A DNA stretch of 64,000 nucleotides from Fistulifera solaris (lineage: Eukaryota). Below the pieces are notes generated by a model. The model saw only the letters and a program-made list of their open reading frames with translations. It made no database searches and was not told the origin of the DNA. The position numbers and the translations under genes are program-made. The stretch spans positions 1,736,001 through 1,800,000 of the forward strand of contig AP026164.1 of the NCBI GenBank assembly GCA_030295235.1, read 5' to 3'. Positions 16,198-57,034 of the stretch are shown here, piece after piece; position 1 is the first letter of the stretch, and each line of letters starts with the position of its first letter.

Positions 16198-16430
16198 CTG
16201 GCCCAGAATTTCTGGGCCGCCCCAATTTCTGTATGAATGAAATTCAACTGGTCCGGAATTTCTGGACAAATTTCATTCATACAGAAAATCTGCGGTTGTC
16301 CAGAAATTCTGGACCAGTTAATTTCATTCATACAAAAATCTGGGGCGGTCCAGAAATTCTGGACCAGCTGAATTTCATTCATATGAAAAATCTGGGGCGG
16401 ATTCAGCTTTTCTGGACCAGCTGAATTTCG
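16198..16430. repeat. Array of ~50-bp units with a 17-bp palindromic core; the leftmost unit is inverted relative to the others
   Basis: Cores of consensus GTCCAGAA(A/T)TTCTGGAC at 16201, 16251, 16298 and 16348, plus a degenerate core at 16401. Bases 16229-16244 are the reverse complement of 16269-16284. Confidence 0.9.
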
Positions 16431-52338: not shown

Positions 52339-52927
52339 CTTTGTAGTTTTCTTTTCGATTGCTTAGCGTAATAACGAAAGGAGTGAATGAGCAGGCCAGG
52401 GGGAGGTGAGAAGAAAAAGGATGGCAAAAACAAAGAAATTTGTTGTCGTTGCAAAATAGACAGTGGCGTGTTGTTCGCCTGCTTCGTCCAAGACAAGTCT
52501 TGTCCAAAATTATTATTGGTCGCGTTGCTCTGTACTGTTCACGACACAAATAACTCTCCATTCCTTGGTGGACTAAACTGTGAGTAAAGCTTCTACTACG
52601 TAACACTTGCAAGAGAAGCTTCCGTTGGTTGGTTATTTATTCAGGAAGTGGAGTATCACCCTTAAGTAAATTCTCGTACCCCGCGCACGTGACTTAGTCA
52701 AAAAACTAAATGTTGAATTCTTGAACGGTACAGTGAAACAATATGTGTTTCTCTAGATAACTAATGACTACCGTATCGACAACTTACTATAGTCTAAGAA
52801 GAGAAAGAATTCCCTATCTAATTGAGTATTTAGGAACTTGTTTCTCCTCGTCCGCGCTCCCTACATGGTGACTCAAACTAAAGACACACATTGTAATGAT
52901 ACAATAAATACTGTCTGATTAAAAAAA

Positions 52928-55844
52928 TTACTGAATCTCGACAGCACCCCTCGCCATCATTCCATGATCAAAAAGGAATTCGAGCATGTATTGGTTCCCA
53001 TCACTGATGCGGATCAAGTCGTCGTATCGCATCTGAATGGACTTGTGAATGGCACGAAAGGATCGCATAAAGATCCCACGATGGCGTTCCATGTACAAGC
53101 CATGGGTTTGTAGCATTTCCAAGCTCCATCGGAGATAGTATTCAATGTGGGGTGACTTGGCCATGGTTTGCGCGAGATTCTGCAAAAGACGTTCCAGTGT
53201 GCTAGGCTCGGCGCGTTCAAACGATCGAATGACCAAGGGAATGGCGTTAAAAGGGACGTGATCCATCACTTCGCGTATCAGACTAGATTCATTCAGGTGC
53301 AACGCCATGCGCAAGGCTAGACTAAACTCTCCAATCTTCACTTTGGTCTGTACAAGTGCGGGGGTGATTTCTTCTGTGAGGCCAATTGGGTCAAAAATCA
53401 TGTCTTCGTCCAGCGAGTACACGTGCAATCCTTCTCCCGAAACAGTGGCCCATTCTCTTCCGGTCGATGAAAAGAAACGGCCATTGTAAGAACCTCCACT
53501 TTGGAACGTCTTGATCCATCGTCTTCGCGGCGGGCTCCTGGTAGGTTCAGAGAGTTGTAGGTAGATTCGTCTTGGTCAGGATCTGCGTGATCATCAATTG
53601 GACCTGCAGGGCCTAAATTCTTGGAATTTAGCTGTAGAAAAAGCATGGAGCGCGTGAGAAAACGGAGATCATAGTTGACACAAATAAAAAGTTTCAAGTT
53701 CAAGAAATCGCTCAGACATCCAAGGAAGTTATTTTGACCCACTGGTGTCTCTACCGTCGACGCAATCTGCGAACGTTTATGGGAAGTTCATCATCATGAC
53801 GATTCTTTTGCCGATCGTCACTGCATACCAACGACAAAAATAAAGAACGGAACGTACCTCGTCGAGCACCCCGTCCAAGCTTCGATTGAATGTAACTTGA
53901 AACTTCTTGAGCAGAATTTGCTGAGAAAGTTCATAAATACATACATACTTCGAGTTTCCACCCGCCAGAATGAAAGACCCATCCGCAGAATAGCATACGG
54001 ACGTAAAATATCGACCGGCGGCATTGTTATCAGCCGTCATGCGGTCGTTCATCTTCCGACCACCGGAAATATCTCGGCGTCCATCGATCTCGTATTTTAA
54101 ACGCCCCGTCTCTACATCCCAGATGCATAACATACCACCCGTTGTACCTGAGCATATTTCTTTGCCGTCCGGACGAGAAGCGACGCAAACCACGTCTGCC
54201 GTGTGCTGAAGGTTCTCTGTGGCGACGTTCTTCTTGTACAAGTCCCACAACTTGACTGTACCATCCCAAGATGCGCTGACCAGAACGCCACCACTGGGCT
54301 GAAAAGCCATGCTACAAACAGGACCAGCGTGCCCAGTAAAAACATCAAGAAGCTTGCCAGTTTGCAGGTTCCAAGCGTAAATATGAAATGGATCAGTACT
54401 ACCGGCAGTGACGATTTCTCCGCTCGGATCGATCGCCAGCGAGAGAAACTGCACAGGAGTGGGCGTCGTCAGTGTGCGAAACGTTCTATATCGATGTAAA
54501 TCGTGGGCTCTGACGGTCCCGTCCAAACTCGCAGAAAGAACGACGCTTGCTTTCGCAAAAGCGACAGCTGTGACAGGTGCTGTATGATTTTGTTCGAGGG
54601 TGACGTAACAGAATCCCGATGTTGCATTCCATAGCTTGATCTTTCCATCTTCTCCCCCAGTGCAAAGAATCACTCCATCGGGAGAATAAGCCATACACCG
54701 CATCCCGTACGCATGGCCTCTTTGCTTGAGAACGTACGTTTCAGATCGCCACTCCCAAACCAGCAACTGCTGTGATTTGGGACACGCAAGGGCTAACCAT
54801 TCGCCAGAGTGATTCAGAGCAGAAGCCCGAATGAGCTGGTTCGAACCAATGGACAAGGTGTGTAGATTCGCAGCGGATGGCATTTCGTAGAGTCCGAAAA
54901 GTCCAGAAGAGAAGCCAACTGCCATTATCTGACCACGCTCCGAATAGGAAACTGTAGATACGATGGCATTGTCTTGATTAAAGTAATGTCGATTCTTCAC
55001 TTTCCAAGTTCCCTTGACAAGATGTTCGGCGTGTGTGTAAGAGGACGTGACCGTGGATTCCACCGGAGCGGAAGCATTGCCCCCAGTGAAGAAGCCGACT
55101 GCATCGTAATCATCCGTTGTATCCATGTCTTCAACTTGAATTGATTCATCATCATTGTATTCGCATTCCCAAGTGACGAGCGCGCCGTCTTCGCTGACGG
55201 AATAGCACGTGTGGACTCGGTCACCAGAAGCCAGTAGATACAGTCCCACGATGGGCTTCTTGTGTCCCGCTAATGTGACCGGCTCATAATTCAAAGTAGA
55301 ATGCAGCGTCCAAATGCGAATAGAACAATCGCGACTTCCCGCGGCAAGAAAAAGACTCATCAGGCGACCAAGCCAAGCAGGTAACATCGTCTCCCAGACC
55401 CGTGTACGTGCGATGCAGCACTAAAGGAGTCAATTCCTTTTGCATGCGAGGGGTACACCAAACCTGAACATGCTTGCCGTGGGTGACGGCAAGATAAGAC
55501 GAGCTGGCTGGACTAAACGCCATGTGCCGAACGCGCTGGGAAAACTTAAATCGATGCAACACAATCCCTCTGTGAAAACTGATGAGCAGAGCATAGTTCA
55601 AGACATCGACCGCGATCAACAAAGAATCATCCTTCGATAGCGCGAGAAAGCGAATGTTCGATCGAGCTTCGATCGGCAATGCCCTGACGGTGTGGGATTG
55701 TAAGTTGAGAACTTGAATGCGGTTGGTTACTGCCGAAATCAACGAATTCCCGGTCGAATCATAAATGACGTTCGAACCTCCTTCTCCCGTCGGACAACCG
55801 TAATAAGCACCACATAATCTTTGAAGCTTGTAGTTGAATTTCAT
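52928..55844 (-). CDS. PWP2: Periodic tryptophan protein 2 (Pwp2/Utp1, SSU processome WD40 protein); intron 53857-53632; frameshifts near 55350 and 53470
   Basis: Motifs MKFNYKLQRLCG, LLVWEWRSETYVLKQRGH, SLDGTVRAHDLHRYRTFRT, NRSLDGVLDE|LNSK, ALRMALHLNE and SPHIEYYLRW. Confidence 0.95.
53702..53807 (-). ncRNA. U14: Box C/D snoRNA U14 (SNORD14/snR128 orthologue), intronic in PWP2
   Basis: Box C ATGATGA at 53797-53791. Domain A CGTTCGCAG at 53775-53767. Domain B CTTCCTTGGATGT at 53728-53716, directly before box D CTGA at 53715-53712. Terminal stem AAGAATCG/CGATTTCTT. Confidence 0.9.
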
Positions 55845-56367
55845 CTCATCGACATTGTACTCAGAGGAATCGTTGCACAGCAATCGTAGCGTGCTTGTAA
55901 TTCCGAAATGAGAGTGACTGTTATGCGAAAGATGTCCATGACAAAATGAATGGCTCGATGCTCGATACTCGATCTTCGATGGCGTTTTGAAGACTACAAA
56001 GTACGGAGTATTATTTTTCGTGGTGTCTGTCGTCAAACCCATAACCCAGACAGTCGACTGACGCATCACAGACGAGTTTCATTTATCCGGTATACAAGCG
56101 GTACTCATAAATACAATACTCCGTATTGTTTTCAAGTGCTCTACAAAATACAGTAGAAAAAATGTACTGAAATGGTGATAGACGGGATCCGACCGTGACT
56201 AGCAATATATGGATACATTGTACAACAGCTTCTCGATTCTTAGCAACTATGAGGTTAAGGGTTATTCAATTTCAACCATCCATTTCTAGTGGCTGCCGTT
56301 GAATTCGAAAACACCAACGCAACCGTCGGAATTACATAAAGGTAAATTTCTTCTTGATTGATGTGAT

Positions 56368-56438
56368 GCAGCATTGGTTTAATGGCAAAATTCGACGTTG
56401 CCATCGTCGAGCTCCGAGTTCGATTCTCGGATGCTGCA
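56368..56438 (+). tRNA. tRNA-Gly: tRNA-Gly (anticodon GCC)
   Basis: Acceptor stem GCAGCAT/ATGCTGC; anticodon arm CGACG-TTGCCAT-CGTCG; T arm CCGAG-TTCGATT-CTCGG; downstream T-run Pol III terminator near 56448. Confidence 0.95.
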
Positions 56439-57034
56439 GTGACTCTCTTTTTCATTCTTTACCTTGCCATTGAGGTCCTACATGCGCTCGGTTGCCATTA
56501 AGATCTTTAAAAGAAAGCGTCCTCTCACTTTATTTTAGAGTTCAAAAACAAGCGTTCGGCGCACTGTATTCCCCCTCCAATAGTGCCTAGCATTTGAATC
56601 TACGTCAGTATATTGCTAGCTAAAAGCATATGGCATCTAATACTTTTTCTTTGCGCGTTAGTGGGTCGACAATTGGGTGTTACTGGTAGAGAGCAGTTGA
56701 CAGCTCTTAACGAACGAGAATGTTGAAATCTGGGATATGCAGTATTGCATTGAATACAGCACTGCTCTTTGAAAATCGGAGCAAACTGGATTTAGACCTT
56801 AAGTAAAGACTTCTTGATAGACTAGACTATTGCCATGCGAGGTCGTTTGAGAATTACCAGGTCCCCGTATTTCCAGTTCGTTTCAACGGTCATATACTTT
56901 ACCCAGTACCGGTACGATACGATGACATGTCGACGATAAAAAAAGAAAATAAGCCGCGCATTTATTTATTTCGATCGATCATCAACTTGATATTTACCAT
57001 TTTGTATCAAGTAGTTGTCACTTTTAATCAGAAA

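What the first reader, a model, noticed from the sequence alone, without database searches (positions are those of the whole stretch)
53632..53857. U14 snoRNA nested inside the intron of the SSU-processome gene PWP2/UTP1
Seen: this 226-nt intron is 2-3 times longer than the typical introns here. It carries box C, box D, a closing stem and both U14 antisense elements: domain B CTTCCTTGGATGT next to box D, and domain A CGTTCGCAG. Established: U14 is needed for 18S processing and guides Cm414 (yeast) / Cm462 (human). It is hosted in hsc70 introns in vertebrates, is dicistronic with snR190 in budding yeast, and is clustered in plants. Inference: here one transcript would deliver both a UTP-B protein and a U14 RNA for the same pre-90S particle, a host arrangement I do not know from model organisms. 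Domain A reads CGTTCGCAG rather than CATTCGCAG, which predicts a compensatory CTGCGAACG in this organism's 18S rRNA.
Basis: partly seen in the sequence, partly recalled or inferred. Interest (0 to 1): 0.82.

Follow-up and report, generated by a model that had tools for sequence, protein, structure and literature searches.

The report
Diatom U14 snoRNA inside PWP2 intron
The only intron of a diatom gene for a ribosome-assembly protein (PWP2) carries the gene for U14, a small RNA that helps make the same ribosomal subunit, and the same pairing recurs in other diatoms; it is a new host for a well-known kind of intron-borne RNA.

Summary
On the minus strand, 53704-53805 is a box C/D snoRNA with box C, box D, a 7-bp closing stem and both U14 antisense elements. 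Rfam SNORD14 matches full length at 45.5 bits (E 2.5e-6 for the window), below the curated cut-off of 64. It lies in a 226-nt GT..AG intron (53632-53857) of PWP2/UTP1. Spliced contigs in 3 of 4 public runs skip exactly these 226 bases.

A metagenome scan for the U14 motif gave 138 loci, and 8 (8 contigs) carry PWP2 exons beside the U14. It sits in the same intron ("beta") or one exon upstream ("alpha"), and three loci have a copy in both. These loci look like raphid pennate, Chaetoceros-like and Leptocylindrus-like diatoms. The terminal stem covaries, and only the snoRNA part of the intron is conserved.

The G in domain A pairs with U by wobble, 12 of 14 related U14s have A, and 47 of 47 surrogate 18S fragments keep T.

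Not shown: the mature RNA, the methylation, this organism's 18S, and whether other U14 copies exist. One diatom-like lineage has tandem U14 outside PWP2.

Verdict: a real U14 in a new, conserved host gene, with an ordinary mechanism.

The parts
53632..53857 (-). Intron 'beta' of PWP2, 226 nt, GT..AG, phase 0, lying between ...LDGVLDE and LNSKN...
   Evidence: Spliced contigs in runs X2, X3 and X4 join 53631 to 53858 (table 5). Sequence.
53704..53805 (-). U14 (SNORD14-like) box C/D snoRNA including the terminal stem. The Rfam match covers 53708-53802.
   Evidence: RF00016 45.5 bits, E 2.5e-6. Aligned with 13 related U14s.
53799..53805 (-). 5' arm of the terminal stem (GAAUCGU)
   Evidence: Pairs with 53705-53711. 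The stem covaries across 14 sequences: 80.2% of cells paired, 6 of 7 pairs changed on both sides, and 0 of 500 shuffles reach the covariation score.
53791..53797 (-). Box C (AUGAUGA)
   Evidence: UGAUGA is invariant in alignment A1.
53767..53775 (-). Domain A (CGUUCGCAG), which pairs with the 18S 5' domain stretch CUGCGAAUG by 8 Watson-Crick pairs and one G.U
   Evidence: 9 bp, -14.7 kcal/mol.
53757..53760 (-). Degenerate box D' (UCGA). It aligns with CUGA in 9, CCGA in 4 and UUGA in 1 of the 14 sequences; the final GA is invariant.
   Evidence: Alignment A1.
53736..53742 (-). Degenerate box C'-like element (GUGGGUC, aligned with AUGGAGC of relatives). A short hairpin at 53745-53756 lies between D' and C'.
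   Evidence: A hairpin is predicted at this place in all 14 sequences, with different letters.
53716..53728 (-). Domain B (CUUCCUUGGAUGU), a 13-nt guide directly upstream of box D. The fifth base upstream of box D pairs with the first C of ACAUCCAAGG in 18S.
   Evidence: 13 bp, -22.2 kcal/mol. Invariant in A1, partly by construction of the search pattern.
53712..53715 (-). Box D (CUGA)
53705..53711 (-). 3' arm of the terminal stem (GCGAUUU)
53858..55844 (-). PWP2/UTP1 exon 1, starting at the ATG at 55844 (MKFNYK...). The window has one base too many in an A-run at 55349-55352 relative to all four runs.
   Evidence: (table 4).
52928..53631 (-). PWP2/UTP1 exon 2 (Utp12 domain), with the stop codon at 52928-52930. 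The window lacks one A after 53469 relative to all four runs.
   Evidence: (table 4).

Best explanation
This is the diatom orthologue of U14, an intron-encoded box C/D snoRNA. Shown: it sits on the sense strand in the single intron of the PWP2/UTP1 coding region, and that intron is spliced out. Inferred: during or after splicing, the core box C/D proteins (Snu13, Nop56, Nop58, fibrillarin) bind the C/D kink-turn closed by the 7-bp stem. The lariat is then debranched and exonucleases trim it back to the protected RNA of about 100 nt. Domain B with box D would guide 2'-O-methylation of the first C of ACAUCCAAGG in 18S rRNA (the site called Cm414 in yeast and Cm462 in human). Domain A would pair with CUGCGAAUG near the 18S 5' end, the interaction that 18S processing needs in yeast. 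Each PWP2 transcript therefore yields one mRNA for a UTP-B subunit of the small-subunit processome and one U14. The arrangement is old and maintained: the same or the neighbouring PWP2 intron carries U14 in pennate-like and centric-like diatoms.
For: The RNA:
- Full-length SNORD14 match, E 2.5e-6 in the window, and the only SNORD14 match there.
- All defining elements are present.
- The terminal stem covaries among 14 related sequences: 80.2% of cells paired against a shuffle mean of 68.0%, 6 of 7 pairs changed on both sides, and 0 of 500 shuffles reach the covariation score. Slid controls give 24-55% paired.
- Domain B forms 13 bp (-22.2 kcal/mol) and domain A 9 bp (-14.7 kcal/mol) with standard 18S stretches.

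Host and splicing:
- PWP2 is identified.
- Exact 226-base skipping is seen in 3 of 4 runs, all from one study.

Conservation:
- 8 loci on 8 contigs have PWP2 exons beside U14 on the same strand.
- The beta intron has the same phase-0 position in the window, L076, L036, L090, L100 and L134. The alpha intron, one exon upstream, occurs in L036, L090, L138 and L066/L102.
- L036 and L090 have U14 in both introns, and Rfam finds a second copy in L066 as well.
- One public gene model (P0006, 1 of 120 PWP2 proteins scanned) reads through the beta intron and spells the translated box C/domain A and domain B.
- Between loci, the snoRNA core is 70.6% identical while the intron flanks are 32.8% and 35.8% identical (34 pairs).

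Position in the intron:
- Box D lies 80 nt from the 3' splice site here and 61-112 nt (median 80) in 10 introns.
- This is near the spacing that favours splicing-dependent box C/D assembly in vertebrates (passage in PMC8162545).

Intron retention:
- Every PWP2 intron seen in the window, L076 and L036 carries a U14.
Against: - No RNA evidence for the mature snoRNA. The RNA-like contigs X2-X4 do not cover the intron, and the one run that does (X1) behaves like DNA.
- The Rfam score is below the gathering cut-off (45.5 against 64).
- The predicted fold is no more stable than shuffles (z -0.43), which is usual for box C/D RNAs but gives no support.
- Boxes D' and C' are degenerate in the window (UCGA, UGGGUC), whereas most relatives have CUGA and UGGAGC.
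- The organism's own 18S and the rest of its genome were not available, so the targets and other U14 copies are unchecked.
- The related loci were found with a pattern that fixes 24 of about 98 core bases, which inflates core identity. Without those bases it is about 61% by my arithmetic.
- Three loci with the same U14 subtype show no PWP2 beside them (L050, L081, L104). L050 and L104 hold tandem pairs. L050 is diatom-like by its coatomer gene: the named best hits are all diatoms at 67-80% identity.
- So PWP2 is not the only U14 context in this group.
Confidence: 0.85

Rival explanations
1. It is a real U14 but an independent transcription unit that merely lies within the intron. It would be made from its own promoter, as are many plant and yeast snoRNAs, so PWP2 expression and U14 supply are not coupled.
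For: Tandem U14 pairs outside PWP2 exist in a diatom-like lineage (L050, L104). This shows that U14 of this subtype can be expressed from a context other than a PWP2 intron. No read evidence here ties the mature RNA to the spliced intron.
Against: The snoRNA is on the sense strand in all 8 PWP2 loci and in the window. Only 34-83 nt lie between the 5' splice site and box C, and these flanks are not conserved (32.8% identity), leaving little room for a conserved promoter. The box D to 3' splice site spacing clusters around 80 nt.
Confidence: 0.1
2. It is a decaying or redundant copy. The working U14 of this organism lies elsewhere, and the intron copy is a passenger without function.
For: The window copy has the lowest Rfam score but three among the 17 SNORD14 matches scored (45.5 bits; relatives 35-60.4). 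It has degenerate D' and C' boxes and a G.U in domain A. The rest of the genome could not be searched.
Against: Box C, box D, both antisense elements and a 7-bp stem are intact. The stem differs from relatives by changes that keep pairing. It is the sole intron kept in the gene, and the position is shared with other pennate-like loci (L076, L100, L134). The G variant also occurs in L100.
Confidence: 0.04
3. It is a chance resemblance of intron sequence to U14 motifs.
For: The score is below the Rfam gathering threshold.
Against: E 2.5e-6 for the whole window over the full model. Homologous sequences at the same intron position occur on independent contigs, with covariation.
Confidence: 0.01

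Closest known systems
Vertebrate U14 (SNORD14) in introns of hsc70/HSPA8, and of RPS13 (the RPS13 host is recalled)
   Same: Same RNA family, with box C/D and domains A and B. It is intron-encoded on the sense strand, one copy per intron, with several copies in different introns of one host gene. Three hsc70 copies are described in the PMC7277114 passage. L036, L090 and L066 have two PWP2 introns each with a copy. The hsc70 arrangement was itself recovered as a control in L047: HSP70 exons with 3 U14 matches.
   Different: The host is a small-subunit processome protein rather than a chaperone or ribosomal protein. Domain A complementarity is shorter (9-11 bp here; the Rfam consensus continues further). 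These sequences score below the Rfam cut-off (35-60.4 bits).
Yeast U14 (snR128), co-transcribed with snR190 (the dicistronic unit is recalled)
   Same: Domains A and B and their 18S targets. Domain A pairing is required for 18S maturation in yeast (passages in PMC7277114).
   Different: Yeast U14 is not intronic. It carries the essential Y-domain stem-loop between the two rRNA-pairing regions. The diatom RNAs have only a short 3-5-bp hairpin flanked by D'/C'-like boxes at that place.
Functionally coupled snoRNA-host pairs: rRNA-targeting snoRNAs in ribosome-biogenesis or ribosomal-protein genes
   Same: An rRNA-targeting snoRNA sits inside a ribosome-biogenesis gene. In human, ribosome-biogenesis hosts are 3.45-fold enriched among snoRNA hosts, and such pairs are classed as 'functional coupling' (passages in PMC13736004).
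   Different: That work covers vertebrates and does not mention U14 or SNORD14 (0 occurrences). Here the pair is U14 with a UTP-B subunit in diatoms, and the host's only introns are the snoRNA carriers.
Plant U14 gene clusters (recalled)
   Same: Tandem U14 copies also occur in the diatom-like contigs L050 and L104.
   Different: The window's copy is single and intronic, not part of a cluster.

Membership tests
U14 / SNORD14 snoRNA | Box C (RUGAUGA) near the 5' end and box D (CUGA) near the 3' end, brought together by a terminal stem | tested here: met
   AUGAUGA at 53797-53791, CUGA at 53715-53712, and a 7-bp stem. The stem covaries in 14 sequences.
U14 / SNORD14 snoRNA | Domain B: about 13 nt complementary to 18S directly upstream of box D, placing the conserved C opposite the fifth guide base | tested here: met
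   CUUCCUUGGAUGU abuts CUGA and forms a 13-bp duplex with ACAUCCAAGGAAG (-22.2 kcal/mol). This was tested against 18S fragments of other eukaryotes only. Their target was required by the search pattern, so its presence there is not independent.
U14 / SNORD14 snoRNA | Domain A: complementarity to the 18S 5' domain (CUGCGAAUG...) | tested here: met
   CGUUCGCAG forms 9 bp including one G.U (-14.7 kcal/mol). 47 of 47 surrogate 18S pieces have T at the wobble partner. This is shorter than the Rfam consensus element.
U14 / SNORD14 snoRNA | Rfam RF00016 curated gathering score (64 bits). This is an annotation threshold, not a biological feature. | tested here: not met
   45.5 bits over the full-length model, E 2.5e-6. 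All 16 SNORD14 matches in the 11 related loci are also below it (35-60.4 bits), so the model appears to under-score this lineage as a whole.
U14 / SNORD14 snoRNA | Accumulates as a stable nucleolar RNA bound by fibrillarin, Nop56, Nop58 and Snu13 | not testable with these tools
   No RNA run on record covers the intron, and the single read-laying run used assembled contigs.
U14 / SNORD14 snoRNA | Needed for 18S rRNA processing and for methylation of the target C | not testable with these tools
   Needs depletion and RiboMeth-seq experiments.
Intron-encoded, splicing-dependent box C/D snoRNA | Lies in a spliceosomal intron on the sense strand, one snoRNA per intron | tested here: met
   The intron is confirmed by spliced contigs. 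There is one SNORD14 match in the window.
Intron-encoded, splicing-dependent box C/D snoRNA | [quoted passage not shown] | tested here: inconclusive
   Box D to 3' splice site is 80 nt here, and 61-112 nt (median 80) in 10 introns. The branch point is not mapped, and the rule comes from vertebrates (PMC8162545 passage).
Intron-encoded, splicing-dependent box C/D snoRNA | No promoter of its own; released from the excised intron by debranching and trimming | not testable with these tools
   No read-level RNA data were available.

The most novel reading that the evidence does not exclude
In diatoms the PWP2 introns persist only because they carry U14. On this reading, an essential 18S-processing snoRNA and a UTP-B scaffold protein of the same early pre-40S particle have been produced from one transcript since near the origin of the group, in one or two copies kept alike by gene conversion. 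snoRNP assembly on the intron may also feed back on PWP2 splicing, so the two components are held in proportion. That would be a selected co-production unit rather than a passenger arrangement.
Probability: 0.3. Interest if true: 0.6.

Novelty: new member of a known kind. Interest (0 to 1): 0.42.

Why it matters
U14 is one of the few snoRNAs needed for making 18S rRNA, and its genomic home differs among lineages. This finding gives diatoms, a major algal group with almost no described snoRNAs, a U14 and a conserved host. The host is itself a part of the machine that U14 works in.

It is also a clean natural example of an intron kept in an otherwise intron-free gene because of the RNA it carries.

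Default Rfam thresholds miss U14 in this lineage (35-60 bits against a cut-off of 64). At least one public gene model translates straight through the snoRNA. The mechanism itself is the ordinary one for intronic box C/D snoRNAs, so the advance is one of cataloguing and evolution, not of principle.

Tried and rejected
- **Own genome:** not held, so the organism's 18S and other U14 copies could not be searched.
- **RNA runs:** no RNA holder listed. The four runs laid are assembled contigs from one study. The parts without cover say nothing about expression.
- **Loose end at 55881** (table 7): its 30 letters match nowhere in the window with up to 3 mismatches. It lies 37 nt upstream of the ATG in contigs of the divergent second haplotype, so I read it as haplotype divergence in the 5' UTR, not an intron. 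This was not followed further.
- **Records behind the metagenome loci:** could not be extended. The alpha intron of L100 and L134 and the beta intron of L138 therefore remain unseen.
- **Search with the read-through part of P0006** (residues 682-750): found only P0006 itself.
- **Unconstrained duplex prediction** of whole U14s against a 420-nt 18S piece gave meaningless long bulged duplexes. It was replaced by short-segment duplexes.
- **Earlier-findings look-ups:** all returned nothing.
- **Literature:** six searches found no paper describing U14 in a PWP2 intron or a diatom U14. The terms were U14+PWP2+intron+snoRNA (6 papers, none relevant); snoRNA+diatom+U14 (3); snoRNA+Phaeodactylum+intron (32, 15 listed); U14+hsc70+snoRNA+host gene (8); PWP2+'intronic snoRNA' (0); and 'position within the host'+snoRNA+branch point+intron (6). 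PMC4247016 mentions a snoRNA only as a qPCR reference (passages). PMC3675471 has 0 occurrences of U14 or PWP2. Subscription journals and supplements were not searched.
- **Rejected readings:** chance match; recent retroposed copy (the position is shared across lineages); and a snoZ157-type assignment (17.1 bits against 45.5 for SNORD14).
Full report
**What is at the coordinates.** The feature lies on the minus strand.
- The intron starts with GTACGT at 53857 and ends with CAG at 53632, 226 nt in all.
- Box C AUGAUGA is at 53797-53791 and domain A CGUUCGCAG at 53775-53767.
- Domain B CUUCCUUGGAUGU is at 53728-53716, directly followed by box D CUGA at 53715-53712.
- Seven bases on each side (53805-53799 and 53711-53705) pair to close the RNA.
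- Rfam's SNORD14 model aligns from its first to its last position at 53708-53802. It scores 45.5 bits, with E 2.8e-8 for 701 bases and E 2.5e-6 for the whole window.
- The curated cut-off is 64 bits, so the default scan lists only a tRNA.
- It is the only SNORD14 match among 6 matches with E up to 1 in the window.
- The minimum-energy fold is not unusual (z -0.43; 61 of 200 shuffles fold as well). This is expected for a box C/D RNA and is neutral.

**The host gene and the intron.**
- The flanking reading frames encode PWP2/UTP1. The upstream exon matches Periodic tryptophan protein 2 chains of solved small-subunit processomes (5oql_A E 2.6e-137, 7mq8_LO E 3.4e-128, 5wlc_LO E 3.8e-122).
- The downstream exon has the Utp12 domain (E 4.3e-19).
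- Four public runs from one study hold this stretch.
- Laid on 52800-56200, contigs of X2, X3 and X4 join 53631 to 53858 and skip exactly 226 bases. They leave the intron uncovered, as spliced RNA would. X1 covers everything and has no joint, as DNA would.
- The same call shows that all four runs have one more A after 53469 and one base fewer at 55349-55352. Both places are A-runs. These differences remove the two apparent frameshifts of the window.
- The coding region therefore runs from the ATG at 55844 to the stop at 52928-52930 with this single intron.
- The best PWP2 relatives are diatom proteins: 76% identity to an unnamed protein and 72% to Seminavis robusta, followed by Nitzschia, Mayamaea and Pseudo-nitzschia. 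This came from 2488 proteins with E up to 1e-30 among 7997 candidates scored. The organism is therefore a raphid pennate diatom.

**Relatives.**
- I scanned the metagenome collection for TTCGCAG, a gap of 20-50, then CTTCCTTGGATGTCTGA.
- 138 loci are held, on 119 contigs by my count. L080-L138 carry only about 300 bases on each side.
- tblastn with five PWP2 proteins found PWP2 exons in 8 loci on 8 contigs: L036, L066, L076, L090, L100, L102, L134 and L138. In each, the exons are on the same strand as the U14 match and directly beside it.
- Two intron positions are used. 'Beta' is the window's position, phase 0 between ...LD(E/K) and LNSK.... 'Alpha' lies one 70-residue exon upstream.
- Beta carries U14 in the window, L076, L100, L134, L036 and L090. 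Alpha carries it in L036, L090, L138 and L066/L102.
- L036 and L090 have a copy in both introns. Rfam finds a second, more divergent copy at the beta place of L066 as well (35 bits).
- The window and L076 have no alpha intron at all.
- In the window, L076 and L036, every intron seen in PWP2 carries a U14.
- One public gene model, P0006 (979 residues, 69% identical), reads through its beta intron. After ...LDGVLDE it spells ...RYDDELPINIRS...NFLGCLS..., the translation of box C/domain A and of domain B. It is the only one of 120 proteins scanned that does so.

**Taxa of the related loci.**
- By best PWP2 match, L076, L100 and L134 are pennate-like.
- L138 is about 80% identical to a Chaetoceros-type group.
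- L090 is 79% identical to the cluster that includes Leptocylindrus danicus. L066/L102 are nearest to that group.
- L036 is 78% identical to an unnamed protein.
- The arrangement thus spans pennate-like and centric-like lineages. That it dates to early diatoms is an inference from these affinities.

**Evidence that the RNA is under selection.**
- In the alignment of 14 U14s of this subtype, the seven terminal-stem pairs form standard pairs in 80.2% of cells, against a shuffle mean of 68.0%.
- 6 of 7 pairs show changes on both sides, and no shuffle of 500 reaches the covariation score. Sliding the partner by 1-3 columns drops pairing to 24-55%.
- Between domain A and domain B, most relatives have CUGA (box D'), a 3-5-bp hairpin of varying sequence, and UGGAGC (a C'-like box). 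The window has UCGA and UGGGUC there; the GA of D' is invariant.
- Between loci, the snoRNA core is 70.6% identical on average. The intron parts before and after it are 32.8% and 35.8% identical (34 pairs).
- The search pattern fixes 24 core bases. Without them the core is still about 61% identical, by my arithmetic.
- Within a gene, the alpha and beta copies are 97.9% (L036) and 88.7% (L090) identical, while their flanks are 33-48% identical. This points to duplication or gene conversion confined to the snoRNA.

**Targets and the domain A variant.**
The G of CGUUCGCAG faces the U of CUGCGAAUG and can form a wobble pair.
- The 9-bp duplex is -14.7 kcal/mol, against -15.1 for A-variants of the same length and -16.7 to -17.7 for 10-11-bp variants.
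- 12 of 14 aligned U14s have A. The window and L100 have G.
- In 47 of 47 eukaryotic 18S pieces found as contaminants in bacterial assemblies (33 distinct), the base is T and never C. These are not diatom sequences, and this organism's 18S was not available.
- Domain B pairs over 13 bp (-22.2 kcal/mol). It places the first C of ACAUCCAAGG opposite the fifth base upstream of box D. By the box D+5 rule (established knowledge), that is the methylated site.

**Likely mechanism.**
- Shown: sense-strand location, splicing of the intron, conservation and covariation.
- Inferred: snoRNP assembly on the pre-mRNA or lariat, debranching, exonucleolytic trimming, methylation through domain B, and chaperone-type pairing through domain A. 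The inference rests on what is established for U14 in yeast and vertebrates (passages of PMC7277114).
- Box D lies 80 nt from the 3' splice site here, and 61-112 nt (median 80) in 10 introns. The introns measured whole (9) are 178-284 nt.
[quoted passage not shown] The branch points here are not mapped.

**Evidence against a strict coupling.**
- Of 13 distinct U14 sequences with the subtype-specific CCCAUAAAC motif (135 distinct matches in all), those of L050, L081 and L104 have no PWP2 beside them.
- L050 and L104 hold tandem pairs.
- L050 is diatom-like by its coatomer gamma gene: the best named hits are all diatoms at 67-80% identity, and unnamed ones reach 85-100%.
- Some relatives therefore keep U14 outside PWP2. 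Whether they also have PWP2 copies is unknown.

**Other U14 hosts in environmental eukaryotes.**
- I scanned 119 same-strand reading frames near U14 in the non-PWP2 loci.
- They include HSP70 (L047 with three U14 matches, and L096), which is the classical arrangement and a positive control.
- They also include a poly(A)-binding protein (L011), IMP dehydrogenase (L061), exportin-T (L079) and mitochondrial ribosomal protein L46 (L023/L040).
- U14 changes hosts readily, so a new host is not in itself surprising.

**Comparison and novelty.**
- The RNA is a U14 by its defining elements, although it and all 16 related matches fall below Rfam's cut-off (35-60.4 bits).
- The biogenesis mode is that of vertebrate intronic U14.
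- Hosting of rRNA-targeting snoRNAs in ribosome-biogenesis genes is a described pattern (passages of PMC13736004).
- New here: the host (PWP2, a UTP-B subunit), the lineage (diatoms), conservation at two adjacent intron positions, and the fact that these are the only introns of the gene.
- Six literature searches found no description of it. Subscription journals and supplements were not covered.
- I rate it a new member of a known kind, of moderate interest.

Noticed in passing
window 53469 and 55349-55352: The window differs from all four public runs by one base in two A-runs inside the PWP2 coding region (one A missing after 53469, one base extra at 55349-55352). Each causes an apparent frameshift. 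These are probably homopolymer errors of the assembly, and they would break the gene model.
   Followed up: partly
window 54182-54461, 54602-54955, 55136-55395: The runs contain two versions of the gene, one identical to the window and one with about 7-10% other letters (28 of 280, 32 of 354, 17 of 259). These are two divergent haplotypes or homeologous copies. One DNA-like contig of the second version covers the U14 intron with two single-base indels (after 53803 and at 53845).
   Followed up: no
window 56367-56439 (+): tRNA-Gly (GCC), Rfam tRNA 58.6 bits, lies about 520 bases upstream of the PWP2 start on the opposite strand.
   Followed up: partly
window 16227-16337: Overlapping sub-threshold matches to three plant or animal microRNA precursor families (best MIR8562 45.9 bits against a cut-off of 211). 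This is probably a repeat or hairpin-rich stretch, not a miRNA.
   Followed up: no
L036:1972-2065 and 2385-2478; L090:272-364 and 653-746; L066:1997-2087 and 1576-1666: Three metagenome PWP2 genes carry U14 in two consecutive introns. The two copies within a gene are far more alike (97.9% and 88.7%) than their intron flanks, suggesting gene conversion limited to the snoRNA.
   Followed up: partly
P0006 residues 682-750: A public predicted PWP2 protein (979 aa) translates through the U14-bearing intron. This is an annotation error that betrays the snoRNA.
   Followed up: yes
L050:703-797 and 822-914; L104:272-367 and 427-522: Tandem pairs of the same U14 subtype lie outside PWP2, on contigs that look diatom-like. 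Their D' box is CCGA rather than CUGA.
   Followed up: partly
L061:1471-1722; L011:2001-2061; L079:770-843: U14 matches lie between exons of IMP dehydrogenase (two copies), of a poly(A)-binding protein and of exportin-T in unidentified environmental eukaryotes. These are further host genes for U14.
   Followed up: no
L139-L185: At least 47 bacterial or archaeal genome assemblies in the species collection contain short contigs with eukaryotic 18S rRNA sequence, which is contamination.
   Followed up: no
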